Shown: positions 1-9,598 of the stretch, in pieces
How positions within the stretch are numbered: position 1 is the stretch's first letter
How the letters are laid out: each line of letters opens with the position of its first letter
The notes under the pieces: model-generated
Database searches by the model: none
Seen by the model: the letters and a program-made list of their open reading frames with translations, nothing else
Told to the model about the DNA's origin: nothing
Program-made: the position numbers and the translations under genes
Source of the DNA: Flavobacteriales bacterium
Lineage (GTDB): Bacteria; Bacteroidota; Bacteroidia; Flavobacteriales_G; JALEGO01
Direction of reading: 5' to 3'
Assembly (NCBI GenBank): GCA_022763165.1
Contig: JALEGO010000294.1
Span: forward strand, 1-13,324
Length of the DNA: 13,324 bases

Positions 1-2899
1 CTCCTTTTACATAACCTTCACTATATTTAGGCTGTGCATAGGTTTGAATTAACCCCAATAACTCTTTAGGTGTTAAAGTCAATAATGTGCTAATTCTGGC
101 AATTTGACCTTTCCACTGAATCTTCTCATTCTCTAAATCAGACAATAGTGTATGTGCTAAGTATTCCGCTCTATATATGTCTTGATTTTCCGATGTTAGT
201 GTTTGACCCCAAACCTCTTTTGTGCCATTGAAGTCCAAATCATTGACCTTTTCAAAGAAATCAGTTCCGGAGAGATGATAATACATATCAGAGTCTTTCA
301 ATACCATGGTCAAATCCAGTTTTTGCTTGTTGTAAGTAAACTGGTGCTTCCCAAATTTCACAATATCTTGACCATTGAGATACAGTTCGTTTTTATCTTT
401 AAGTTGCCTTAAAGCTTCCTCCTTTGCCGATTTTAGTTGACTCTGGATACGGTCCGCCTTCACCGAATCCCCCAAGTCCATCAGGCGCTTCACTATGTCA
501 CGTACCTTATCCACCATGATATCAGAAGCATAATAGCCGTTGATTTCACTCACCGTCATAAGCTCTGAAAGTTTATGATGAATACCTTTTAAAATTCGAT
601 CAGCAGAATTTGACAAGGCGGTTGTTTTTCGATTAATCTCTTCTACCAGAGTCAATTTCCTGGATTCAAAGGCATTGTAAATCTCTTCTCGTTTATCATG
701 AATAAGATCAGTAAACTCTTCAAATTCTGAAAATTTTCCTTCCAACTCTTCGAGTTGAATCATCAATTTATTGAGATACTCTTCGCATTTTTCCGGACTA
801 TCACTGACATCAAGATAATTCACAACACCTTGACTAATCAATTTGATTTGCGCATTAAACTCAGCCCTTCCTTCAAGCGAAAAGAGCTCTTTGCGTTTCT
901 GTTTAAGAATAGAATTTACTTGATTAAATTCTGCATATATTGAGCCGATGTGATCAACAATTTCAGTCGTTTTGGTAGGATCTGTAATTTTTAGATTGCT
1001 AACAATTTCAATTAACATCTCCAACTCTTTAGACGTATCAGAAATGTTTTCAGCAATGAGCTCAGCATCTGCATTTTTTGATACCCCTTCTATTTCTTTC
1101 CTTAGAGTTGCGACCTTCCCTTCATAGGGTTTAAGTGATTCATCTTGAAGCAGGAATTGAATACAATTCTCTGAAATGCCTTCCACCTGAGCCCCCAATG
1201 TTTCCTCCGTTTGATTTACAACATCCAACTCAACATACCGAAGCTCTTTTAAGGAAATGACTTCACCCCGAATGACTCGCAACTCAGATAATAGGTTTAC
1301 AAACTCATCAATATGTTCAAATGTTGAGCGTTTGATCTTCGAAATAATATCTTCCGCTTTTTGAAGCGTTTCAGAAGTTTGTTTTTTGGTACTCTTTTTG
1401 ATTTGAACAACCTTTTCAAACTCGCTAATTGCAGAGTTAGAAGTACCCTTTATATCCTCTAAAGGCTTACGCAATTCAAAAGCGTCTTTGTGGGTGAGCC
1501 AGTGGTAGGTATCAATAATATCAGTGCTCTTTTTGACAAGGTCAATATACAAGTTGTTGTAACTATCATCTTTCTCTATCAACTTGATGACATCTCGACA
1601 CTCCGCCATGGCCTTGACGATCTCTTTGTTGCCCAATTTGAATAAGTAGGAGTCTTGTTTTCCTTTGAGCTCAAAATCTGGGCCGATGAAGGGCGTTTGC
1701 CAAATCTGAATGGCATGATGCTTCTTCTGATCATCGTCACCTTTGAAGTATAATAGCTCTCCATTCTCAAGTAGTGTAAATCCATGACAGACAATTGGGG
1801 TTCCTACTGATTGTTCGATTAAATTATATGGCAGTAAAATATAAGTTCCAGAGCTGTTATTGTAAAATGTAAAAAGGTAATCCTCTCCATTTTGAGAGAC
1901 AATCCTTTTTTCGAATATCATATCTTCTTGCTGGTTATCAAATAGTTTGAACTCTCCAGTTTGCGCATAATATCCTTTCGAAAAAATAATCCCCTGGTTG
2001 TCCGGCAAGAAAATACAGCTATTCTCAAGCGCATCAATTCTTACTGCTTTTTCGATTTTCTCATTATAGACGATGTATCTGAAATCATCCTCTTTGTAAG
2101 GTTTAATTTTGAGGATAATTAAATTCTCAATGATAGCGTATTGAATGGCAGCATCACCTAGATTTTGATCCTTTTCATTGACAGGTTCAGAATATATTCC
2201 CAAACCTGAATCCGTATTGTCTTCAATTTTGATGGTAAGATCTCCACCAACGGTCTCTACAAATATCCGATCCTCAATTGAGATGTGTGGATGACGACCT
2301 GATCTGAACTGTTCCCTTTTAGGTTTCTGCCATTTGAATTCGTGCTGATTTGGAAATTTGAACTCATGATCGGACCGGTTGTCAATATACTTCAGTTTCC
2401 CATTGACTAAGGTCCATTTGAACGTTTTGATATCATCTTCTGTTTTTCCGACTTGGAACACCATAAATATGTTTACTCCAATTTGTGCGAATTTGACAAA
2501 CTGTGTATCACGGTAGTATTTGTAGAGATTAAGGAAGTCATCTACGAATTTTTTATCTTCAACGAATTTTAGGGAGGTTTCGTGAAAGGCGTTGTCTTTG
2601 TATGTGTACGCGCTGAAAACATCTGACAGTTTCATTTCCGATTTTAGTCCCATGTGCACATTATAACCAAATAAAAAGGTATCTCCGAGCATGATGATGT
2701 CTCGAGCAACGCAATTGTTTTTGGTTGTTACACGCTCTGTTGCGAGCAATTTGGTTTCTATGGCTCCAAAAACTTCTTTTCGAGCCTGATTAAGCTTCAA
2801 AAGACGCCCTGTAAGGTCCTTTCCCTCTTTTTTCAGACGGTTTTGAATGATTTCGTATGTTCCTTCTTCTAATATGATATTTTCGTTCTCTTCTGCCAT
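1..2899 (-). CDS. Giant uncharacterised protein. Only the N-terminal 966 codons are in the window; the C-terminus lies beyond position 1. Residues 1 to about 430 look beta-rich, followed by about 500 aa of alpha-helical, acidic, coiled-coil-like sequence. No Walker A motif was seen.
   Basis: Manual translation of the minus strand from ATG at 2897-2899 (context ccATATg) runs stop-free to position 2. The frame was checked codon-by-codon at both ends. The protein begins MAEENENIILEEGTYEIIQNRLKKEG... Within this span the ORF track shows no competing long ORF, only the off-frame 71-aa 1579..1794. The gene is missing from the track because no stop codon lies inside the window. Confidence 0.75.
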   Translation of the reverse strand, partial: MAEENENIILEEGTYEIIQNRLKKEGKDLTGRLLKLNQARKEVFGAIETKLLATERVTTKNNCVARDIIMLGDTFLFGYNVHMGLKSEMKLSDVFSAYTYKDNAFHETSLKFVEDKKFVDDFLNLYKYYRDTQFVKFAQIGVNIFMVFQVGKTEDDIKTFKWTLVNGKLKYIDNRSDHEFKFPNQHEFKWQKPKREQFRSGRHPHISIEDRIFVETVGGDLTIKIEDNTDSGLGIYSEPVNEKDQNLGDAAIQYAIIENLIILKIKPYKEDDFRYIVYNEKIEKAVRIDALENSCIFLPDNQGIIFSKGYYAQTGEFKLFDNQQEDMIFEKRIVSQNGEDYLFTFYNNSSGTYILLPYNLIEQSVGTPIVCHGFTLLENGELLYFKGDDDQKKHHAIQIWQTPFIGPDFELKGKQDSYLFKLGNKEIVKAMAECRDVIKLIEKDDSYNNLYIDLVKKSTDIIDTYHWLTHKDAFELRKPLEDIKGTSNSAISEFEKVVQIKKSTKKQTSETLQKAEDIISKIKRSTFEHIDEFVNLLSELRVIRGEVISLKELRYVELDVVNQTEETLGAQVEGISENCIQFLLQDESLKPYEGKVATLRKEIEGVSKNADAELIAENISDTSKELEMLIEIVSNLKITDPTKTTEIVDHIGSIYAEFNQVNSILKQKRKELFSLEGRAEFNAQIKLISQGVVNYLDVSDSPEKCEEYLNKLMIQLEELEGKFSEFEEFTDLIHDKREEIYNAFESRKLTLVEEINRKTTALSNSADRILKGIHHKLSELMTVSEINGYYASDIMVDKVRDIVKRLMDLGDSVKADRIQSQLKSAKEEALRQLKDKNELYLNGQDIVKFGKHQFTYNKQKLDLTMVLKDSDMYYHLSGTDFFEKVNDLDFNGTKEVWGQTLTSENQDIYRAEYLAHTLLSDLENEKIQWKGQIARISTLLTLTPKELLGLIQTYAQPKYSEGYVKG

Positions 2900-2928
2900 A
2901 TGTGTTTTTCAATTAAATCCTATTTTTT

Positions 2929-3025
2929 CGGTCTACACTTCATTAGACTCAGTGCAAGCTAGCTCAGCGTGACCGTGCAGTTTGCAGATGCCCTTAGCCT
3001 GACAAAGGGCTTTAGTTTCATTGCA
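2929..3025. repeat. REP-like palindromic intergenic element, copy A. It is a chimeric variant: left arm cttcattagactcag, right arm cttagcctgacaaagggcttt.
   Basis: It shares (g)gtctac(a/g)c, agctcagcgtgac and cctgac.aagggcttt(c)attt blocks with copies B and C, with an 11-bp insertion relative to them. Confidence 0.6.
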
Positions 3026-3057
3026 CTTAGCTCATATTTGGTCTACACCAGCGTAAG

Positions 3058-3135
3058 TTGGTCTACGCTTCGTCAAGCTCAGCGTGACAGAACACTTTCG
3101 TTGCTAATGACCTGAGACTAATGAAGTCTCATTTC
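3058..3135. repeat. REP-like palindromic element, copy B. Its right end overlaps the GIY-YIG stop codon.
   Basis: ttggtctacgcttcgtcaagctcagcgtgacagaacactttcgttgct is identical to copy C at about 45 of 47 positions. The distal arm cctgagactaatgaagtctcatttc has diverged. Confidence 0.7.
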
Positions 3136-3413
3136 TTATTCGACAATTCCTTTAACAATTCAATATTTCCATTTATCAAAGCTTCTTTTTTACTCCTTTT
3201 CAAACCCTTTATTCTATTTTCCCATTTAATTGCTTCGCTTTCTAAGCTGAAATTCTGAGAATAGACCAATTCTACCGGCCTTCGATTATAAGTATATGCT
3301 GATACAAATTTTCCTATTTGATGTTCATTCAATCGATTGGTTAAATCAGATGTACATCCAGTATAATATGAACCATCAGAGCATTTTAGTATGTATACGG
3401 TTAAATGTGGCAT
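3129..3413 (-). CDS. Small GIY-YIG nuclease family protein of 94 aa, YhbQ/UPF0213-like
   Basis: ORF track 94 aa begins MPHLTVYILKCSDGSYYTGCTSDLTNRLNEH. It carries the GIY-YIG hallmark (VYIL..GSYYTG...R...H) and the conserved downstream E/N region. Size is typical of stand-alone GIY-YIG proteins. Confidence 0.85.
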   Translation of the reverse strand: MPHLTVYILKCSDGSYYTGCTSDLTNRLNEHQIGKFVSAYTYNRRPVELVYSQNFSLESEAIKWENRIKGLKRSKKEALINGNIELLKELSNKK

Positions 3414-3420
3414 GCACTAT

Positions 3421-3500
3421 TTGGTCTACGCTTCGTCAAGCTCAGCGTGACAGAGCACTTTTGTTGCTGAAGTCCTGAGCCTGACGAAGGGCTTTCATTT
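3421..3500. repeat. REP-like palindromic element, copy C, carrying the best-preserved 15-bp inverted arms (cttcgtcaagctcag / ctgagcctgacgaag, 14 of 15 complementary)
   Basis: Direct repeat of copy B immediately upstream of the GIY-YIG gene. The internal inverted repeat can form a stem of about 15 bp with a loop of about 29 nt. Confidence 0.7.
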
Positions 3501-3590: not shown

Positions 3591-3971
3591 TTATACCAAT
3601 TCATTGGCCTTCAAATCCTCAAGAAAGCGTGCTTGAAGGTCTGACATAAAACCTTGAATCACATCAGCCTCGGATTTCTGGATGCCACTAGACTCTTTTG
3701 CTACTTCTTCTAAGATTTCAATAAAGAAATTGTAGGCGGGGTTTGGACCAACTTCTTTACATCTCTGGAGTGCTTTTTGATAAACATCTTCCAAGTCACC
3801 CTTTTTCTTTACCTCATAATCAAAGGACCATTTGATTTCCTGAGCCCAAGCATGATTCTTTAACATTTGAGAGAGTTTTTCCTTTTCCTCAGGTTGAATC
3901 ACTCCATCAGCAATACATACTGCGTATAGCAATTCACCTAGCGCATCATTTAATTTTTCTTGATCTGTCAT
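3591..3971 (-). CDS. TerB-like (tellurite-resistance TerB / DjlA N-terminal superfamily) small cytoplasmic protein, 126 aa
   Basis: Two helical repeats carry the TerB-type acidic motif: LLYAVCIADGVIQPEEKEKL and FIEILEEVAKESSGIQKSEADVI. Compare the TerB aADGeIxxEEk pattern. The assignment is by eye only. Confidence 0.55.
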   Translation of the reverse strand: MTDQEKLNDALGELLYAVCIADGVIQPEEKEKLSQMLKNHAWAQEIKWSFDYEVKKKGDLEDVYQKALQRCKEVGPNPAYNFFIEILEEVAKESSGIQKSEADVIQGFMSDLQARFLEDLKANELV

Positions 3972-4007
3972 ATTTAAAGTTTAGTTATATCGTTGTTTTA
4001 GTTGTTC

Positions 4008-4142
4008 CTAGTTATCTCGTTTTTCAAAATTCTCGAGTTTTTTAATCTTGGTTCTTCTGATCGCAAGAAATATCAGGGCAATCAAACAAAAGCCCATGAA
4101 AATACCTTGAGAACCCATAATCAATTTTGGTAACCATTCCAT
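4008..4142 (-). CDS. Hypothetical 44-aa single-pass membrane peptide (MEWLPKLIMGSQGIFMGFCLIALIFLAIRRTKIKKLENFEKRDN). Its ATG lies 1 nt after the ybjQ-like stop.
   Basis: Manual translation. The hydrophobic core GIFMGFCLIALIFLAI is followed by a basic stretch. The arrangement stop(TGA 4144-4146)-t-ATG(4140-4142) suggests translational coupling. The ORF is below the track's size cutoff. Confidence 0.3.
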   Translation of the reverse strand: MEWLPKLIMGSQGIFMGFCLIALIFLAIRRTKIKKLENFEKRDN

Positions 4143-4143
4143 A

Positions 4144-4458
4144 TCAACTCAGTTTTACAGCGGTTCCGTAGGCTAGTATTTCTGAACAACCTTGCATAAC
4201 CATTGAAGTAGTCAACCGGACATTGATTATAGCATCTGCTCCTAGTCTTTTTGCATCATCTTTCATTCTTTGGAGTGCCTGTTCCCTTGACTGAGCTTGA
4301 AGCTTAGTATACTCTTCAATTTCGCCACCAATTAGGTTTTTTAAGGCTGCAAAAATATCGCGACCAAAGTTTCTAGCTCTAACCGTACTTCCTCTGGCTA
4401 CCCCAAGTATTTGGGTGACACTTTTTTGAGGAATATTATCTGTTGTTGTAATTATCAT
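4144..4458 (-). CDS. YbjQ family protein (UPF0145/DUF74, heavy-metal-binding-like), 104 aa
   Basis: MIITTTDNIPQKSVTQILGVARGSTVRARNFGRDIFAALKNLIGGEIEEYTKL...ILAYGTAVKLS is collinear with the conserved YbjQ pattern M.vtTt..ieg..i.eylGvV.Ge.v.gan..rd.fa..rdivGGr...Y...l...R..A...m...A..lGAnAvv.vr.d...........v.a.GTAVkl. Confidence 0.85.
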   Translation of the reverse strand: MIITTTDNIPQKSVTQILGVARGSTVRARNFGRDIFAALKNLIGGEIEEYTKLQAQSREQALQRMKDDAKRLGADAIINVRLTTSMVMQGCSEILAYGTAVKLS

Positions 4459-4560
4459 TGTCGTGTATTTTTAGTTAAACAATAGGTCAACCAATCATTC
4501 TTTTCTTGGTTTCTTTTTGTCAGCGCTAGGGGTTGGAACGATATCCTTTTGGTTTTTAGT

Positions 4561-4630
4561 TGCTGGCACTTCGTCAGTACTGCGAAGTTATTTTGCCATC
4601 CTAAGCTTGACGAAGGATAGGCCTTCTAAC
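4561..4630. repeat. Degenerate copy (E) of the REP-like palindromic element (cacttcgtcag ... ctaagcttgacgaagg)
   Basis: It shares the cttcgtca(a)g / ct.agc.tgacgaagg arms with the copies at 2929-3500. A gaagg-atag-ccttc mini-hairpin follows at 4612-4626. Confidence 0.45.
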
Positions 4631-4654
4631 CAAAAGATAAAGCGGAAGACCCGA

Positions 4655-4682
4655 CCCCGATATCCTTAAGGACAAATCGGGG
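4655..4682 (-). terminator. GC-rich hairpin (ccccgat-N14-atcgggg, inner ccttaagg palindrome) 23 bp downstream of the flotillin stop. Possible terminator or attenuator on the minus strand; the following T-tract is weak (ctttatctttt).
   Basis: A 7-bp perfect stem seen directly in the sequence. The U-tract is not contiguous with the stem, so the assignment is tentative. Confidence 0.3.
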
Positions 4683-4704: not shown

Positions 4705-6801
4705 TTAGTTGTTGATGAAATTTCTTGCTGGAAGATCAGATAGGCCAGCGTTTTTGGCCATAGTGTAAAGCTCTTCAAGCATTCCTTTTTGACCTCCATT
4801 ACTGGACTTACTTATCATTTTATAGAGTAAAGCTGACACAGTCAAGTTTTTAACATCATCTGAACTAATATTCAACTCTTTGATAAGATTTTGAATATTT
4901 TCCTTCAGGTTTCCTGAACCACCGTTGAGTAGTTGACTTTTCACCTCAGAAAGTGTCTCGCTATTGTCTATAAATCTGTCTACCATTTTCCCGTTTCCAA
5001 TGGCACCAACGAGTTTATCAAAGAATACTTGCTCACCACCTACGATGTCAATTTTCGCTGATTTAAGCGCTTGACTCATCACATCAGCTTGCGCAAAAGC
5101 GATGTCTTTTCCAACATTTACTTTAGCAAGATCCACTTCTTTTTCCTTTGCAAGTCTCAGTTTGAACTCTTCATGTTCTTTACCAGCTCCATCGAGTTTC
5201 TGCATCGCTTGAGCTTTTAACTCAATCACCTTCGCATCAATTGTTCCTTGCTTCTCAGAAGCACTTGCTAATGCCTCTTTGACCTCAGCCTCAGCATGAC
5301 CAAGTTTCTTGTCAGCCTCTGCTTGAGCATCAGCCTTTTTGCTGATACCATCGGCCTCAGCTTCGGCTGTTAATCTAATGATATCCGCATGAGCTTCACC
5401 ATCTTTCTTCTTAGCAAATGCTTTAGCTTCAATTACTTGCGCTTCAGATTTACCATGAGTCGCCTCTTTAACCGCTTCAGCTTCAGCTAAAATCTTGATC
5501 GCTTCAGCCTTCTGAATCGCAGATGCTTGTTCAGCTTCAGCATCGATAATTTTCTTTTTAGCATTGTATTCGGCAGCTTCTCTTTCAGCCTCAGCCTGCT
5601 TGATTCTCTCAACCATTTTGGCTTGAGCAGATTCTTCTGCCTTCTTAACGGCAACTGTTTTTTGTCGCTCTGCTGCGGCCAGTGCTCTTGTATCTTTGAT
5701 TTTCTCTTCCTCTTGAACAACAGTTTTCTCAATAGCAACTCTTTCGCGAATCACTTCTTGAATATTCTTACGCTCCTGTTCAACTGACTTCTCCTTTTCA
5801 ATCTGTGCTAGAGTAACAATTTTCTCTCGTTCAGTAGCCTCAAGAGCCCTGTCTTTTTCAACTCTCTCAAGTTCAACTGCATCCGCCTTTTCCTTGGCGC
5901 GTTGAGCCAACAATACTTCTCTTTGTTTATTTTGCTCTTTGACGAGTAATTCCTCATTAGCAGCAATACGTGCCTTCTCAGACTTCACTCTTTCCTCTTG
6001 TTGAACTTTAGCAGCTTCAGCCTCTTCTCTTGCTTTAACTGTGGCAATTTCACGTTTTTGTTTTTCCTCTTTTTCCGCTAACTGCCTATCAAGCTCTAGA
6101 ATCGCCTCTCTAGCTTCAACGTCTTGTTGTCTAATGATCTTTTCCTTGTCCCTTTCGATAAGATTGGCTTGAACCTTTTGTTTTGCCGTCAAATCGATGA
6201 TTTTCTTGATACCTTCAGCATCTAAAATATTTGCTTCGTCCAGAGCCTCAATTGGTGTCTGTTCTAAGTAGTCAATGGCAGCATCATCCATAATATAACC
6301 ATTCAGGTTTTTACCAATGGTTTGAATAATTTCAGATCTCAGTTTATCCCGTTCAGTATATAATTCGACAAAATCAAATTGCTTCCCTACTGTCTTAAGG
6401 GCTTCTGAGAATTTAGCCTCAAAAAGCTGATTTAAAGCTTCTTTTGAGGAGGCTCTTTCGCAACCAACAGATTGGGCAACTTTCTTTACATCTGAATGAC
6501 TTTCGTTCACCCTTACGAAGAAGGCCATTTTAATATCAGCGCGCATATTGTCTTTACATACAAGACCGTCTTTTCCCTCTCTTGAAATCACGATACTCTT
6601 TAATGAAATATCCATAACCTCCAGTTTGTGAAGCACGGGTATAACCAGCATGCCAGAGAATGACACTTTTACACCACCAATTCCCGTTCTTACTAAGGCT
6701 TGGCCCTGCTTGGCCTTCTTGTAGAATCTTGAAATTAAGGCGATGATTCCAAAAATGAACAGTATTACGATTACTGTTGCAACAATTACAGTTTGTGGCA
6801 T
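4705..6801 (-). CDS. Flotillin-like SPFH/band-7 protein (YqiK family), 698 aa. N-terminal TM helix, SPFH domain, long EA/K-rich coiled coil, C-terminal flotillin tail.
   Basis: The ORF track gives 698 aa. The N-terminus MPQTVIVATVIVILFIFGIIALISRFYKKAKQGQALVRTGIGG matches the YqiK/flotillin N-terminus. About 350 aa of REEAEAAK-type coiled coil follow. The gene sits immediately downstream of a YqiJ/NfeD-like gene, as in E. coli yqiJK. Confidence 0.9.
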   Translation of the reverse strand: MPQTVIVATVIVILFIFGIIALISRFYKKAKQGQALVRTGIGGVKVSFSGMLVIPVLHKLEVMDISLKSIVISREGKDGLVCKDNMRADIKMAFFVRVNESHSDVKKVAQSVGCERASSKEALNQLFEAKFSEALKTVGKQFDFVELYTERDKLRSEIIQTIGKNLNGYIMDDAAIDYLEQTPIEALDEANILDAEGIKKIIDLTAKQKVQANLIERDKEKIIRQQDVEAREAILELDRQLAEKEEKQKREIATVKAREEAEAAKVQQEERVKSEKARIAANEELLVKEQNKQREVLLAQRAKEKADAVELERVEKDRALEATEREKIVTLAQIEKEKSVEQERKNIQEVIRERVAIEKTVVQEEEKIKDTRALAAAERQKTVAVKKAEESAQAKMVERIKQAEAEREAAEYNAKKKIIDAEAEQASAIQKAEAIKILAEAEAVKEATHGKSEAQVIEAKAFAKKKDGEAHADIIRLTAEAEADGISKKADAQAEADKKLGHAEAEVKEALASASEKQGTIDAKVIELKAQAMQKLDGAGKEHEEFKLRLAKEKEVDLAKVNVGKDIAFAQADVMSQALKSAKIDIVGGEQVFFDKLVGAIGNGKMVDRFIDNSETLSEVKSQLLNGGSGNLKENIQNLIKELNISSDDVKNLTVSALLYKMISKSSNGGQKGMLEELYTMAKNAGLSDLPARNFINN

Positions 6802-6853: not shown

Positions 6854-7528
6854 CTATACGTAATGCTCATACGGCTCTACCAAATAGCATTCCTCCTGAT
6901 TGTCTTTTTCAATTACCAAAGCAGTTTGACCAGCCTTAAGCTCCATTTCCGGCTTCATTGCTTTGATATATATTAATATATGTGAGCCATCAGCGTCAAT
7001 TTCAGCTTGTCCTTTCATTTCAAAACTTGCTGGCAAGGTCACTTCACAGATTCTGCCTAAAATCTCCTTCTCTTCTGTGCCCTTATTCAAAGCCGCAAAA
7101 ACTTTTATAAATGGCATAGTCAAAACTTTTGCAATGAATAGGCAAACGATGAACGATGGTATCAGAATGGCAATACCGATAAGGAGTGTAGTATTTCCAA
7201 GAACATAATTTGCATTGACAACCATTAACCAAAGTGGTAAAGCAACAAAGCTCATAAATACCATTAGAGGGATTTTACCCAGATTGAAAAATCTCAAAAT
7301 GTTATTGATCCAAGATATGTCAGCCTCACCGTCAATGTCCCCAGCATCAACATTAGAATCAAATTCTGCATCCAAATCGATCTCCGCTTCCAAATCCAAA
7401 TCTATATCGATAAAATCCATATCTATTGCTCCAAAGATTACGATCACCCAGTATAGCACCACGAATAGTAAAAGCGCTGTGGGAATGATATTCGCTAAGG
7501 AAAATGATATGTCAATTAATTCTTTCAT
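6854..7528 (-). CDS. YqiJ family inner-membrane protein (DUF1449, NfeD-like partner of flotillin), 224 aa, with an acidic DIDLDLEAEIDLDAEFD insert
   Basis: The N-terminal TM segment is followed by the motif FNLGKIPLMVFMSFVALP (compare E. coli YqiJ LNIGRLPALVVLCLLAG). There are further TM helices and a C-terminal soluble beta-domain. The gene lies directly upstream of the flotillin gene. Confidence 0.8.
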   Translation of the reverse strand: MKELIDISFSLANIIPTALLLFVVLYWVIVIFGAIDMDFIDIDLDLEAEIDLDAEFDSNVDAGDIDGEADISWINNILRFFNLGKIPLMVFMSFVALPLWLMVVNANYVLGNTTLLIGIAILIPSFIVCLFIAKVLTMPFIKVFAALNKGTEEKEILGRICEVTLPASFEMKGQAEIDADGSHILIYIKAMKPEMELKAGQTALVIEKDNQEECYLVEPYEHYV

Positions 7529-7592: not shown

Positions 7593-8300
7593 TCAGCTAT
7601 TCAAACCCATTTTCTCCTTCAGTGCTGCTAAGGCGTCTGTTGCTGCTGTTTTTTCAGAACCTTCCAAAGCCTTATCAATTTCATCATCTACTGACCTGCT
7701 TTCATCTGCAATTTCACCATAAGCTTCTGCTAAAGCCTCAGATTCAGCAACTTTATCTCTCATTCTCTCCAACATAGCAATGGTATCAGAACCATCGATT
7801 TGCGCCATTTGCTTATTGAGTTTTTCAGTGGCCGCACTAACCTTCACTCTAGCCTTTAGCGTTTTCAGCTCGTTTTCCCATTTGCTGATATTGTGTCGAA
7901 TGCTCCTGATGTTTTGTTCTAGTTGAGAAATATTGCCATCAAATTTCTCACGTTCAGCTTTGGCCCTAGCAGCTTGCTGAATAGCCTCCTCCTTTTTGAC
8001 GAGCGCCTCAGTTGCAAGCCGATCAGCTTCAACAATATCCAAGTCTCCTTTTTGAGCCTTTTGCAATAAAAGCATTGCTTTGTTCTCATACTCTTTGGAC
8101 CGTTCAATTTCCTTCACCTCTTCGTTCTTAGCACGAATTTGCATTGCTTTAACTTCTGCCAAAGCATGAAGGCTTTTATCAAGATCTTCTTTCATATCTC
8201 GAATGCCCTGTTCGGTCAATTTAATTGGATTCTCAAGATGATCCACTGCAGCGTGGGCCTCAGCCTGGCCAATTTTAAAAAGTCTTTTGAAAATATTCAT
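7593..8300 (-). CDS. pspA: PspA/IM30 (Vipp1, phage-shock protein A) family protein, YjfJ-like, 235 aa
   Basis: MNIFKRLFKIGQAEAHAAVDHLENPIKLTEQGIRDMKEDL is the canonical PspA N-terminus (MGIFSRF..I..N.NALLDKAEDP.K...Q.IREME..L). The rest is coiled-coil. The gene sits 12 bp downstream of a YjfI-like gene. Confidence 0.9.
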   Translation of the reverse strand: MNIFKRLFKIGQAEAHAAVDHLENPIKLTEQGIRDMKEDLDKSLHALAEVKAMQIRAKNEEVKEIERSKEYENKAMLLLQKAQKGDLDIVEADRLATEALVKKEEAIQQAARAKAEREKFDGNISQLEQNIRSIRHNISKWENELKTLKARVKVSAATEKLNKQMAQIDGSDTIAMLERMRDKVAESEALAEAYGEIADESRSVDDEIDKALEGSEKTAATDALAALKEKMGLNS

Positions 8301-8312
8301 TGTAGTATATTT

Positions 8313-8705
8313 TTAATTTTTTGAGAACTCTATCAATTCCGATGAATACTCACTTAAGAGTAAACTCAAAGAATTGATGGATCCTTCTAATTCATTTAAG
8401 TCTAGATTTTCGAGTTGCAAAGTATCTCTAAAAATCAAGCGTTTTCCGCTTTCATCCAGAGCAAATGCCCCATGGACAATATCTCTGTTTTTCTGAAGGA
8501 GTTTGGTTAAAATCGTTTCATTCCCATTTAACTCTAAAATGAATTGCTCCATGATTAAAATGGGCTCCGCACATCCTATTACTAATCTGTTTATTCCAGC
8601 TTCTTCATCGTTTATTACTATTACTCCATCTTCAGCATTTTCATGGGTGATTGTGTAATCGAGATCGAGTAAATAGTTTTTCACTTTTTCAAAGTTGCTT
8701 TTCAT
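8313..8705 (-). CDS. YjfI/DUF2170 family protein (YbjN-like fold), 130 aa. This is the canonical upstream partner of the PspA homologue YjfJ.
   Basis: The 130-aa length and pattern GVIVIND.EAGINRLVIGCAEPILIMEQFI ... LLQKNRDIVHGAFALDESGKRLIFRDTLQLENLDLNEL parallel E. coli YjfI (LRITLAG.EELPVFVSLSD.QLVCAVNLW ... LLELNPAVPLSSFGKVGDAYVLFGAL). The yjfI-yjfJ order and spacing are conserved. Confidence 0.65.
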   Translation of the reverse strand: MKSNFEKVKNYLLDLDYTITHENAEDGVIVINDEEAGINRLVIGCAEPILIMEQFILELNGNETILTKLLQKNRDIVHGAFALDESGKRLIFRDTLQLENLDLNELEGSINSLSLLLSEYSSELIEFSKN

Positions 8706-8871: not shown

Positions 8872-8917
8872 ACTAAATATTTTAGTTAAAGCAAATATTT
8901 TTAGTAAAAAACTAAAA
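8872..8917. promoter_or_regulatory. Putative operator array. Palindrome ACTAAA-tat-TTTAGT spans 8872-8886 and palindrome TTTAGT-aaaaa-ACTAAA spans 8900-8916. A fifth ACTAAA half-site lies at 8850-8855.
   Basis: Perfect inverted repeats are visible in the sequence. Five copies of the same hexamer half-site fall within 67 bp, immediately upstream of the HTH regulator's start codon, in the divergent region shared with the psp/flotillin array. Confidence 0.5.
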
Positions 8918-8920
8918 TTT

Positions 8921-9598
8921 ATGTCATTTTTTGGTAAAAATATTAGAAAAATAAGAGGATTTAAAGGCCTTAGTCAGGCTGCGTTTGCAGAAATCTTTGA
9001 CGTGAATCGCTCTAACATAGGAGCCTACGAGGAGGGGAGAGCAGAACCTAAGATCGATCTCATCATAGAAATTGCTAAATATTTTAGCATATCCCTAGAA
9101 GATATGGTAGGGAAAGAGTTGACCATAAATGATATCAGCTCATTCAAGTTGTTTGACGAAGGACCTACAATTAAAAAGGAACAGGAGAGCCCTAAGATAT
9201 TACAACCGATCTTGGTGCGGGCGGTGGATCAGAATTACTATATCAATCATCACAGAGATAAACCAGCACTTGATCAAATGAAAATTAGCAATGACTTTGG
9301 GATTCTAACCTGCGACAGAATTTTTGAACTCACAAGTCCGCTTGATGGTTTAGGACTATCAGCAGGCGACTACGTACTTTGTGACTCAGAACTTGGATCT
9401 GAAGGTTTTGGCATCGGCATTTATAAGGAAGAAATCAAAGCTTTTCGAATTGAAGATATCCTGAATGAGGATTTCAGTGAGTCTTGGCGCATAAATGGTT
9501 ATATCAAAAAAAATCTTACTCACACCTCATTAGAAGCGCGCATGAATCATGTTGAGAAGTCCCTTATTGAATTGAAAGCCAGATTGAAGATCGATTGA
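8921..9598 (+). CDS. XRE-family (Cro/C1-type HTH) transcriptional regulator with a C-terminal LexA/CI-like (S24-type) beta-domain, 225 aa
   Basis: The N-terminus IRKIRGFKGLSQAAFAEIFDVNRSNIGAYEEGRAEPKIDLIIEIAKYFSISLEDM is a textbook HTH_3. The C-terminal SPLDGLGLSAGDYVLCD...GIGIYKEEIKAFRIEDI aligns by eye with LexA GDSMIDAGILDGDLLAV...VVARIDDEVTVKRL. Confidence 0.85.
   Translation: MSFFGKNIRKIRGFKGLSQAAFAEIFDVNRSNIGAYEEGRAEPKIDLIIEIAKYFSISLEDMVGKELTINDISSFKLFDEGPTIKKEQESPKILQPILVRAVDQNYYINHHRDKPALDQMKISNDFGILTCDRIFELTSPLDGLGLSAGDYVLCDSELGSEGFGIGIYKEEIKAFRIEDILNEDFSESWRINGYIKKNLTHTSLEARMNHVEKSLIELKARLKID

What the first reader, a model, noticed from the sequence alone, without database searches (positions are those of the whole stretch)
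1..2899. Giant ORF (>=966 codons, truncated) missing from the ORF track
The largest gene in the window is invisible in the supplied ORF list because it has no in-window stop codon. Its product starts MAEENENIILEEGTYEII. It has a beta-rich region of about 430 aa, then about 500 aa of acidic helical or coiled-coil sequence with no P-loop. I cannot place it in any family by eye. It terminates the same-strand array that contains the PspA, flotillin, YbjQ and TerB-like genes. It has its own 230-bp upstream region packed with REP-like elements. A protein of this size, syntenic with a membrane-stress module, could be a scaffold, an ATPase whose catalytic domain lies beyond the window, or a sensor. 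It is the best candidate for an undescribed component.
Basis: seen in the sequence. Interest (0 to 1): 0.7.

Follow-up and report, generated by a model that had tools for sequence, protein, structure and literature searches.

The report
Truncated flotillin-linked AAA+ ATPase gene
The big open reading frame is real, but it is the front 60% of a widespread, already catalogued and still untested bacterial ATPase that nearly always sits next to membrane-scaffold (flotillin/NfeD, sometimes PspA) genes; the contig simply ends before its ATPase domain.

Summary
Observation confirmed. Minus-strand 2899..1 is an uninterrupted 966-codon frame that runs off the contig end.

It can be placed in a family. 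Residues 28-466 match Pfam DUF3686 end to end (E 6e-184) and residues 588-671 match DUF7902. The identical protein is in NCBI as 'DNA repair ATPase, partial [Flavobacteriales bacterium]'.

Full-length relatives (about 1,600-1,900 aa; 1,245 clusters at 50% identity) add a C-terminal AAA+ module with invariant Walker A, Walker B, sensor-1 and arginine-finger motifs.

Structure prediction (pLDDT 82) gives a divergent beta-propeller, then spectrin-like helical repeats, then a small alpha/beta domain.

In reference genomes a flotillin-like (SPFH) gene lies directly upstream in 63 of 66 loci and an NfeD/YqiJ-like 3-TM gene in 58 of 64. CesT-PspA is present in about 40% of loci, all Bacteroidota. YbjQ, TerB-like and GIY-YIG are lineage-specific inserts.

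[quoted passage not shown] (mSystems 2024). No experiment exists, and the 'DNA repair' name is unsupported.

Most likely role (inferred): an ATP-driven remodeller of SPFH/PspA membrane assemblies. It is a known family with an open function, of modest interest.

The parts
1..2899 (-). N-terminal 966 codons (about 59%) of a DUF3686-DUF7902-AAA+ ATPase. The gene is cut by the contig end; the AAA+ module is missing.
   Evidence: open frame, start, no Walker A. (Pfam). (identical NCBI protein; relatives of 1,630-1,660 aa with PF00004/PF07728).
1502..2818 (-). DUF3686 region (aa 28-466): an N-terminal helix (12-44) followed by a divergent beta-propeller (strands over aa 50-401).
404..1648 (-). Long helical region (aa 418-832) resembling spectrin-type helical-bundle repeats. 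It includes DUF7902 (aa 588-671, nt 887-1138).
23..364 (-). Small alpha/beta domain (aa 846-959), modelled with lower confidence. The protein continues beyond the contig end.
   Evidence: strands 846-884, helices 910-959; pLDDT 40-80.
2900..3128 (-). 229-nt spacer upstream of the ATPase start, holding two copies of a bipartite hairpin repeat (about 3128-3055 and about 3021-2950). No Bacteroidota-type -7 promoter box.
   Evidence: (families D1, D2, D4, D7).
3129..3413 (-). Small GIY-YIG protein (94 aa), bracketed by 69-nt direct repeats (3058-3126 and 3421-3489, 88% identical). A lineage-specific insert.
   Evidence: PF01541, 1.5e-15. (D1). (homologue at the same position only in L055; elsewhere only L017).
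3591..3971 (-). 126-aa TerB-like protein (below Pfam threshold). A lineage-specific insert.
   Evidence: TerB 19.5 bits against a cut-off of 24.4. (no homologue in the 80 genome-scan loci).
4144..4458 (-). YbjQ_1 family protein (104 aa). A sporadic insert.
   Evidence: 7.7e-40. (otherwise only in L037, at a different position).
4705..6801 (-). 698-aa flotillin-like SPFH protein: N-terminal TM helix, SPFH region, Glu/Ala-rich coiled coil, C-terminal domain. The most conserved neighbour of the ATPase.
   Evidence: TM 5-23. (Band_7 hit in 5 of 30 orthologues, best 7e-14). (profile hit to QmcA 8z5g, 9.6e-5). (upstream on the same strand in 63 of 66 loci). (RefSeq names: 'SPFH domain-containing', 'flotillin family').
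6854..7528 (-). 224-aa 3-TM protein of the NfeD/YqiJ/YuaF type.
   Evidence: TM 14-32, 86-104, 115-133. (58 of 64 loci). (Ravi et al.: 3TM YqiJ/YuaF).
7593..8300 (-). PspA/IM30 (ESCRT-III superfamily) protein. A Bacteroidota-specific addition to the triad.
   Evidence: PF04012, 6.2e-40. (25 of 60 loci, all Bacteroidota).
8313..8705 (-). CesT_Tir_1/YbjN-like chaperone-type protein; the first gene of the array.
   Evidence: PF22550, 5.4e-54. (23 of 60 loci).
8921..9598 (+). Divergently transcribed HTH_3 regulator-like protein, conserved with the CesT-PspA dyad.
   Evidence: HTH_3, 3.6e-10. (23 of 60 loci, divergent). ('cHTH+Protease' in the Dokdonia context).

Best explanation
**What it is (shown).** Window 2899..1 encodes the N-terminal 966 residues of a cytoplasmic ATPase of about 1,640 residues. 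The family architecture is N-terminal helix, divergent beta-propeller (DUF3686), spectrin-like helical repeats (including DUF7902), a small alpha/beta domain, a further helical region, and one C-terminal AAA+ module. The contig ends before the AAA+ module. The gene is the last member of a conserved triad: NfeD/YqiJ-like 3-TM protein, flotillin-like SPFH protein, ATPase. In many Bacteroidota, as here, that triad is preceded by CesT-like and PspA genes and by a divergent HTH regulator.

**How it works (inferred, not shown).** The propeller and helical repeats dock the enzyme onto the cytoplasmic face of the membrane-anchored SPFH/NfeD assembly and, where present, onto PspA polymers. The AAA+ ring then uses ATP to remodel, disassemble or recycle those assemblies, or clients held in them, during envelope stress. 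The role is comparable to Vps4 on ESCRT-III or FtsH inside HflK/C cages. The AAA+ module is not of the classical Vps4/FtsH clade and lacks an aromatic pore loop, so the action may be conformational remodelling rather than threading.

**Confidence.** Identity and architecture about 0.97; functional partnership with SPFH/NfeD about 0.8; the specific remodelling mechanism about 0.4.
For: **Identity**
- Pfam DUF3686 at 5.8e-184 (full length of the model) and DUF7902 at 6e-25.
- The identical NCBI record, and 2,676 word-sharing relatives, those listed being about 1,630-1,660 aa with PF00004/PF07728.
- 1,245 clusters at 50% identity.

**AAA+ module in relatives**
- AAA_5 at 7.8e-8 and AAA at 2.2e-7, both above their cut-offs.
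- Across 43 sequences from several phyla: Walker A SPPGYGKTT and the Walker B DDIQH core are identical in all 43; sensor-1 AGNPYTE and the arginine in the finger motif (37 LANRAD, 4 LSNRAD, 2 LANRSD) are also conserved in all 43.
- Foldseek matches to RuvB, MCM, NorQ/CbbQ, ClpB and p97, with prob up to 0.99.

**Fold of the window part**
- AF2 pLDDT 82.
- Propeller matches by Foldseek.
- No TM segment, so cytoplasmic.

**Partnership**
- SPFH gene directly upstream on the same strand in 63 of 66 loci; NfeD-like in 58 of 64; PspA in 25 of 60; CesT in 23 of 60. The loci span Bacteroidota, Planctomycetota, Verrucomicrobiota, Clostridia and others.
- The same pair occurs in Pseudomonas pQBR103 and in Streptomyces, annotated 'SPFH'/'flotillin family' next to 'DNA repair ATPase'.
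- Partner identity: Band_7 hits in orthologues, a QmcA profile hit, and TM topology.

**Literature**
- Ravi et al. 2024 describe the identical operon and propose chaperone-like and membrane-dynamics roles.
- A 2025 review states that no Vps4-like ATPase is known for bacterial PspA.
Against: - No experiment on any family member was found.
- The AAA+ module cannot be seen in this window, and an attempt to extend the contig failed.
- The AAA+ clade is unresolved. Sequence similarity to solved AAA+ proteins is limited to about 40 residues around Walker A. The model shows a pre-sensor-1 beta-hairpin, and the pore-loop-1 position lacks an aromatic residue. A Vps4-like threading mechanism is therefore not supported.
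- Walker B is D-D rather than D-E, so hydrolysis could be slow or switch-like.
- PspA is absent from most loci, so a PspA-directed role cannot be general.
- In this window three unrelated small genes and repeat-filled spacers (1.8 kb) separate the ATPase from the SPFH gene, so co-transcription here is unproven.
- No physical interaction was tested; synteny is the only link.
Confidence: 0.55

Rival explanations
1. It is what the databases call it: a DNA repair ATPase (RuvB-, SbcC- or SMC-like) that acts on DNA. Its position next to membrane genes would then be incidental.
For: - Pfam describes DUF3686 as 'ATPase involved in DNA repair', and NCBI and RefSeq name members 'DNA repair ATPase'.
- Weak RuvB_N/RuvB similarity around the P-loop.
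- RuvB is among the best Foldseek matches of the AAA+ module.
- A GIY-YIG nuclease-type gene lies immediately upstream in this window.
Against: - RuvB matches are below family cut-offs: Pfam 25 bits against 27, NCBIfam 25 against 282. They cover only about 45 residues at Walker A.
- No SMC/SbcC architecture: no N-terminal Walker A in the 966 aa and no SMC Pfam hit.
- No DNA-binding domain was detected.
- The conserved neighbours are membrane proteins in 63 of 66 loci. No repair gene is conserved nearby.
- The GIY-YIG neighbour is present in only 2 of the 80 genome-scan loci and is flanked by mobile-looking repeats.
- No paper supporting the name was found.
Confidence: 0.04
2. It is the effector or sensor of an anti-phage or other conflict system: a large NTPase with a propeller sensor domain, comparable to STAND/Avs-type proteins, using membrane partners for abortive infection.
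For: - The architecture (large size, propeller plus helical repeats plus NTPase) superficially resembles sensor NTPases.
- Some loci lie near integrases, transposases and group II intron reverse transcriptases (L003).
- Copies occur on megaplasmids such as pQBR103.
- PspA, TerB and TerD-type neighbours occur in stress or conflict contexts.
Against: - No significant PADLOC match for the ATPase or its partners; the only hit is TRIP13 at E 0.003 over 38 residues at the P-loop.
- No homologue in 50,697 phage records.
- The NTPase is AAA+ (Walker B followed by sensor 1 and an arginine finger), not STAND.
- The triad has the same order across at least six phyla, which looks like a housekeeping or stress module rather than a patchy defence island.
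Confidence: 0.06
3. It is mainly a structural scaffold or coat. The propeller plus helical-repeat region forms a sub-membrane lattice with flotillin, and the AAA+ module only regulates the protein's own assembly. This is a protocoatomer-like reading.
For: - The propeller-then-helical-repeat order resembles clathrin heavy chain, IFT-A and nucleoporins, which appear among the Foldseek matches (ranks 3, 15, 16, 39, 40).
- The helical part resembles cytoskeletal spectrin and plectin repeats.
- The helical region 672-832 is as conserved as the propeller.
- The family is abundant in Planctomycetota and Verrucomicrobiota.
Against: - The long-range Foldseek alignments to coat proteins have very poor TM-scores (0.07-0.13) and huge rmsd. 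The resemblance is one of domain order only.
- All catalytic AAA+ residues are invariant, which argues for an enzyme with real turnover.
- No oligomer modelling was possible.
Confidence: 0.12

Closest known systems
[quoted passage not shown]
   Same: - Same gene order, including the divergent HTH gene.
- Same domain order for the ATPase.
- Same class of organism (Flavobacteriia).
- The paper also notes the abbreviated flotillin-YqiJ-ATPase form, which my scan finds to be the majority.
   Different: - This copy is truncated by the contig end.
- It is at most 59% identical to any other member seen.
- It is separated from the flotillin gene by three inserted small genes (YbjQ, TerB-like, GIY-YIG) and hairpin-repeat spacers. 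That layout was seen in no other locus, apart from one GIY-YIG insert in L055.
Vps4/CdvC acting on ESCRT-III polymers
   Same: An AAA+ enzyme genetically linked, in Bacteroidota, to an ESCRT-III superfamily protein (PspA). It has a non-catalytic N-terminal recognition region ahead of a single AAA+ module. The proposed role is polymer remodelling.
   Different: - Not an orthologue.
- No MIT domain; the N-terminus is a propeller plus helical repeats.
- The model shows a pre-sensor-1 hairpin, and there is no aromatic pore loop 1.
- Vps4 ranks only 40th among fold matches, and the CdvC NCBIfam match is E 0.057.
- The primary linkage is to SPFH/NfeD, not PspA.
FtsH within HflK/HflC (SPFH) cages; prohibitin with m-AAA protease
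   Same: An SPFH-family membrane scaffold paired with an AAA+ machine. This is a recurring partnership (established knowledge; for SPFH cage structures such as QmcA 8z5g).
   Different: - The ATPase here is soluble, with no TM segment.
- It has no protease domain.
- It is about 1,640 aa with a propeller and helical N-terminal region.
- Its AAA+ module is not demonstrably of the classical FtsH clade.
MoxR/AAA_5-type and RuvB-type AAA+ modules
   Same: - Pfam AAA_5 matches nearly full length and above its cut-off.
- The motif layout is Walker B, helix, beta-hairpin, 'AGNP' sensor 1, 'NR' arginine finger.
- NorQ, CbbQ and RuvB are among the top fold matches.
   Different: - No VWA partner was seen in any locus.
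- RuvB family models score far below their cut-offs.
- PF00004 (classical AAA) scores equally well.
- Clade assignment therefore remains open.

Membership tests
Pfam DUF3686 (PF12458) / DUF7902 (PF25472) protein family | Match to both family HMMs above the curated gathering scores | tested here: met
   DUF3686 612.2 bits (cut-off 25), profile 1-448 of 448. DUF7902 87.7 bits (cut-off 26), profile 2-85 of 85.
DUF3686-DUF7902-AAA+ ATPase (NCBI 'DNA repair ATPase') | C-terminal AAA+ module with Walker A, Walker B, sensor 1 and arginine finger in the same polypeptide | not testable with these tools
   The contig ends at codon 966, about 300 residues before Walker A of relatives. The overlap search found nothing. 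All 39 aligned relatives and 43 locus-derived sequences have the module, with invariant motifs.
NfeD/YqiJ - flotillin(SPFH) - ATPase triad | SPFH and NfeD-like genes upstream on the same strand | tested here: met
   Window order 6854-7528, 4705-6801, 2899-1, all on the minus strand. Family-wide 63 of 66 and 58 of 64 loci.
CesT/Tir-PspA-YqiJ-flotillin-AAA+ operon of Ravi et al. 2024 | All five gene types in that order, with a divergent HTH gene | tested here: met
   (Pfam for CesT_Tir_1, PspA_IM30, HTH_3). (3TM, SPFH). (published description).
Beta-propeller fold (N-terminal domain) | Structural similarity of the predicted domain to solved propellers | tested here: met
Classical AAA clade, Vps4/CdvC-like | MIT-type N-terminal domain; aromatic pore loop 1; no pre-sensor-1 hairpin; family-model match | tested here: not met
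   The N-terminus is a propeller plus helical repeats. The pore-loop-1 position reads NGPAIGH, with no aromatic residue. The model has a hairpin at 423-436 between Walker B and sensor 1. CdvC model E 0.057.
RuvB / DNA-repair helicase | Match to RuvB family models above cut-off; DNA-repair gene context | tested here: not met
   RuvB_N 25.0 bits against cut-off 27. NCBIfam RuvB 25 bits against 282. No repair genes conserved nearby.
   No Walker A in residues 1-966. No SMC or SbcC Pfam or NCBIfam hit for this protein. The N-terminus is a propeller.
MoxR (AAA_5) family | AAA_5-type module plus a VWA-domain partner | tested here: inconclusive
   AAA_5 32.9 bits against cut-off 22, profile 2-127 of 139, but PF00004 scores 31.8. 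NorQ and CbbQ are among the fold matches. No VWA partner adjacent in the loci inspected.
Known anti-phage defence systems (PADLOC) | Match to any defence-protein model | tested here: not met
   no match for the window protein or its partners. For full-length P0020 only TRIP13 at E 0.003 over 38 residues. No phage homologues.

The most novel reading that the evidence does not exclude
This family is the missing ATP-driven remodeller of bacterial membrane scaffolds. A soluble AAA+ machine would use a propeller and a spectrin-like arm to seize flotillin/SPFH cages and, in Bacteroidota, PspA (ESCRT-III) polymers, and disassemble or reset them. That would make it a functional analogue of Vps4 built on a different AAA+ clade, in organisms where reviews currently state that no such ATPase exists.
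Probability: 0.3. Interest if true: 0.7.

Novelty: new member of a known kind. Interest (0 to 1): 0.3.

Why it matters
Bacterial flotillins and PspA are studied as membrane-organising and membrane-repair proteins, but what drives their assembly and disassembly is unknown. A 2025 review says a Vps4-like ATPase appears absent in bacteria. A conserved ATPase welded by synteny to flotillin/NfeD across many phyla is the obvious candidate, and it is still annotated misleadingly as 'DNA repair ATPase'.

The value of this window is limited. The family and the operon are already published, the gene here is truncated, and the organism is an uncultured MAG. Cultivable relatives (Dokdonia, Pontibacter, Hymenobacter, Pseudomonas pQBR103, Streptomyces) are better entry points.

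The useful additions from this analysis are:
- the quantified linkage (SPFH in 63 of 66 loci against PspA in 25 of 60);
- the predicted fold of the N-terminal 966 residues;
- the evidence that the AAA+ module is not Vps4-like.

Tried and rejected
- **Possible Rosetta-stone fusion**, NfeD1b_N plus DUF3686 in P0140. Rejected as a gene-calling artefact. The 'linker' is Arg/Pro/Gly-rich out-of-frame sequence on a 5x-coverage contig, a normal ATPase start follows it, and the ATPase is itself split in two there.
- **Extending the contig** with an exact 34-mer against public metagenomes found nothing. The exact protein occurs on one contig only.
I redid it with substrings of proteins returned by the protein search.
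- **Single-sequence and profile searches against PDB sequences** gave nothing beyond the Walker A stretch, for both halves. The SPFH partner (profile A2) gave only a modest QmcA hit; the NfeD-like partner was searched as a single sequence only and gave nothing significant.
- **Literature searches** for DUF3686 and PF12458 returned nothing. SPFH/NfeD/AAA+ searches found no experimental work on this ATPase.
- **Promoters.** The sigma-70 scan was no better than shuffles. The Bacteroidota -7 motif is absent from all internal spacers. Promoter structure upstream of the ATPase is unresolved.
- **Rfam.** Only a sub-threshold Flavo-1 match outside the finding.


Full report
**1. The observation**

Translating window 1-2899 on the minus strand gives 966 sense codons with no stop, beginning MAEENENIILEEGTYEII. 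The mechanical ORF list does not show it because ORFs that run off an end are not listed.

An in-frame TGA lies four codons upstream of the ATG. By base composition, the probability that 966 codons stay open by chance is about 2e-31. No Walker A motif occurs in the 966 residues. The N-terminus aligns with 39 full-length relatives, so the start is right.

The truncation is an assembly end. The identical 966-aa protein is on record from one contig of 13,324 bases, which is the length of the window. It is named 'MAG: DNA repair ATPase, partial [Flavobacteriales bacterium]'. An exact-match search for an overlapping metagenome contig found none.

**2. What the protein is**

It can be placed in a family.
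- Residues 28-466 match Pfam DUF3686 over the whole model (E 5.8e-184).
- Residues 588-671 match DUF7902 (E 6e-25).
- The word-indexed search gave 2,676 relatives. The best are only 53-59% identical and about 1,630-1,660 aa long, and they add PF00004/PF07728 AAA domains.
- The exhaustive search of 50%-identity representatives gave 1,245 clusters at E<=1e-3 and 387 at E<=1e-30, typically 1,600-1,900 aa.

In relatives the AAA+ module starts about 300 residues beyond the point where the window ends.
- It matches AAA_5 (7.8e-8, nearly full length) and AAA (2.2e-7) about equally.
- Across 43 sequences from several phyla, Walker A (SPPGYGKTT) and the Walker B DDIQH core are identical in every sequence. 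The AGNPYTE sensor-1 core and the finger arginine (37 LANRAD, 4 LSNRAD, 2 LANRSD) are also conserved in all 43.
- Walker B is D-D rather than D-E, and the pore-loop-1 position (NGPAIGH) has no aromatic residue.

**3. Predicted structure**

The 966 residues, predicted with a 40-sequence alignment, gave a model with mean pLDDT 82. It contains:
- a helix at 12-44;
- about 28 strands over 50-401;
- long helices over 418-832;
- a small alpha/beta domain at 846-959.

Foldseek against the PDB returned 79 matches at E<=1e-3. They are dominated by 6-7-bladed beta-propellers: CyRPA, prolyl oligopeptidase, WD40 proteins, the clathrin N-terminal domain and the trilobed-protease propeller.

The C-terminal 690 residues of relative P0020 gave a model with pLDDT 75. 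It has a recognisable AAA+ core and a beta-hairpin between Walker B and sensor 1. Its fold matches are RuvB, MCM, CLPB, NorQ/CbbQ, ClpA and p97, with Vps4 only at rank 40. All have E>1e-3 but probabilities up to 0.99.

Profile searches against PDB sequences align only about 40 residues around Walker A. The module is certainly AAA+, probably not of the classical Vps4/FtsH/Cdc48 clade, and its exact clade is unresolved. No family member has a solved structure.

**4. Gene context**

In the window the minus-strand array is as follows:

| Coordinates | Product |
|---|---|
| 8313-8705 | CesT_Tir_1 |
| 7593-8300 | PspA |
| 6854-7528 | 224-aa 3-TM protein |
| 4705-6801 | 698-aa protein with one N-terminal TM |
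| 4144-4458 | YbjQ |
| 3591-3971 | weak TerB-like protein |
| 3129-3413 | GIY-YIG |
| 2899-1 | the ATPase |

A divergent HTH_3 gene follows at 8921-9598.

The 698-aa protein has no Pfam hit itself. Five of its 30 orthologues (47-62% identical) hit Band_7/SPFH, best 7e-14. The family profile hits the SPFH cage protein QmcA. RefSeq calls orthologues 'SPFH domain-containing' or 'flotillin family' protein.

I examined 80 loci from Bacteroidota, Planctomycetota, Verrucomicrobiota, Clostridia, Desulfobacterales and Chitinispirillaceae. Among loci with enough upstream sequence:

| Upstream gene | Loci with it |
|---|---|
| SPFH gene, directly upstream, same strand | 63 of 66 |
| NfeD-like gene | 58 of 64 |
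| PspA | 25 of 60 (all Bacteroidota) |
| CesT | 23 of 60 (all Bacteroidota) |
| Divergent HTH | 23 of 60 (all Bacteroidota) |

YbjQ appears in one other locus at a different position. GIY-YIG appears in two other loci, once at the same position. The TerB-like gene appears in none.

The pair also occurs in Pseudomonas fluorescens megaplasmid pQBR103, there appended to a PspA/polyamine-type operon, and in Streptomyces. There are no phage homologues and no PADLOC matches.

**5. Prior knowledge**

Ravi et al. (mSystems 2024, PMC11237479) describe this operon. [quoted passage not shown] They note that abbreviated flotillin-YqiJ-ATPase operons are more widespread. Their supplement lists the same order, with a divergent cHTH+protease gene, for Dokdonia donghaensis.

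I found no experimental study of the ATPase. A 2025 review states that a Vps4-like ATPase appears absent in bacteria.

**6. Mechanism**

*Shown:* identity, architecture, cytoplasmic location, an intact catalytic motif set in relatives, and near-obligatory linkage to SPFH/NfeD.

*Inferred:* the propeller and spectrin-like arm recognise the cytoplasmic face of the SPFH/NfeD assembly (and PspA where present), and the AAA+ ring remodels or recycles it. This parallels two known partnerships: SPFH with AAA+ (HflK/C with FtsH) and ESCRT-III with Vps4. The lack of an aromatic pore loop, the D-D Walker B and the pre-sensor-1 hairpin argue against simple Vps4-like threading.

The 'DNA repair' name has no support. 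RuvB models score far below their cut-offs, there is no SMC/SbcC architecture, and no repair genes are conserved nearby.

**7. The upstream spacer**

The 229-nt spacer 2900-3128 carries two copies of an approximately 75-nt element made of two hairpins: GCCCTT..AAGGGC and ACGCT-GAGCTTGACGA-AGCGT. A third copy lies upstream of the GIY-YIG gene, and a variant with compensatory stem changes lies at 4594-4623.

The GIY-YIG gene is bracketed by 69-nt direct repeats that are 88% identical. Similar hairpins lie next to GIY-YIG genes in two other genomes.

No Bacteroidota -7 box lies in any internal spacer. Whether the ATPase here has its own promoter is unresolved.

**8. Verdict**

The ORF is real and correctly delimited. 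The guess that it is an ATPase whose catalytic domain lies beyond the window is right. The claim that it is unplaceable and undescribed is not. It is a divergent, truncated member of a catalogued and published but experimentally untouched family. Interest is modest (0.3). The most novel reading still open is that it is a dedicated flotillin/PspA remodeller, with probability about 0.3.

Noticed in passing
window 3058-3126 and 3421-3489 (flanking 3129-3413); also L055:9230-9290 and L017:15531-16800: The small GIY-YIG gene is bracketed by 69-nt direct repeats (88% identical) built from hairpins of the form N5-GAGCTTGACGA-N5'. The same hairpin type lies next to GIY-YIG homologues in two other genomes, once at the same flotillin/ATPase spacer. 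This looks like a mobile GIY-YIG/hairpin cassette that lands in intergenic spacers.
   Followed up: partly
window 4514-4660 (+): Sub-threshold match to the Flavo-1 RNA family (27.3 bits against a gathering score of 42), spanning the whole model but with a 73-nt insertion in the terminal loop. The insertion contains the hairpin-repeat copy at 4594-4623. It may be a Flavo-1-like RNA interrupted by a repeat, or chance.
   Followed up: partly
window 8894-8911 / 8927-8944: An 18-nt inverted repeat (89% complementary, 15 nt apart) straddles the start of the divergent HTH_3 gene in the CesT/HTH intergenic region. It could be an operator for that regulator. The only good Bacteroidota -7 box (TAAATTTG) lies 61 nt upstream of the HTH gene.
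   Followed up: no
window 4705-6801 (-): The flotillin-like partner gets no Pfam hit at E<=0.01 on its own, although close orthologues hit Band_7 at 7e-14. This SPFH subfamily sits at the edge of the current Pfam model and is easily missed in annotation.
   Followed up: yes
window 3591-4458 (-); L037:5060: YbjQ and a TerB-like gene are inserted between the flotillin and ATPase genes only in this lineage. In Aquimarina latercula a YbjQ gene (82% identical) is instead inserted between PspA and the NfeD-like gene. YbjQ has therefore entered this operon at least twice, at different points.
   Followed up: partly
L086 (Pseudomonas fluorescens SBW25 plasmid pQBR103, 85437-102343): On this megaplasmid the SPFH-ATPase pair is appended to a PspA - rhomboid - DUF2491 - DUF350 - DUF1190 - glutathionylspermidine-synthase-like operon. 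This joins two of the PspA operon classes that the 2024 paper treats separately.
   Followed up: no
L085:6001-13100 (protein P0140): A metagenomic 'NfeD1b_N-DUF3686 fusion protein' is a gene-calling artefact: out-of-frame read-through on a 5x-coverage, high-GC contig, with the ATPase also split in two. It is a caution for anyone mining domain fusions in this family.
   Followed up: yes
relatives of the window protein, AAA+ module (e.g. P0020 aa 1283-1420): Walker B is invariantly Asp-Asp (YLDDIQH) rather than Asp-Glu. The pore-loop-1 position has a conserved His instead of an aromatic residue. Both are unusual for an unfoldase-type AAA+.
   Followed up: partly
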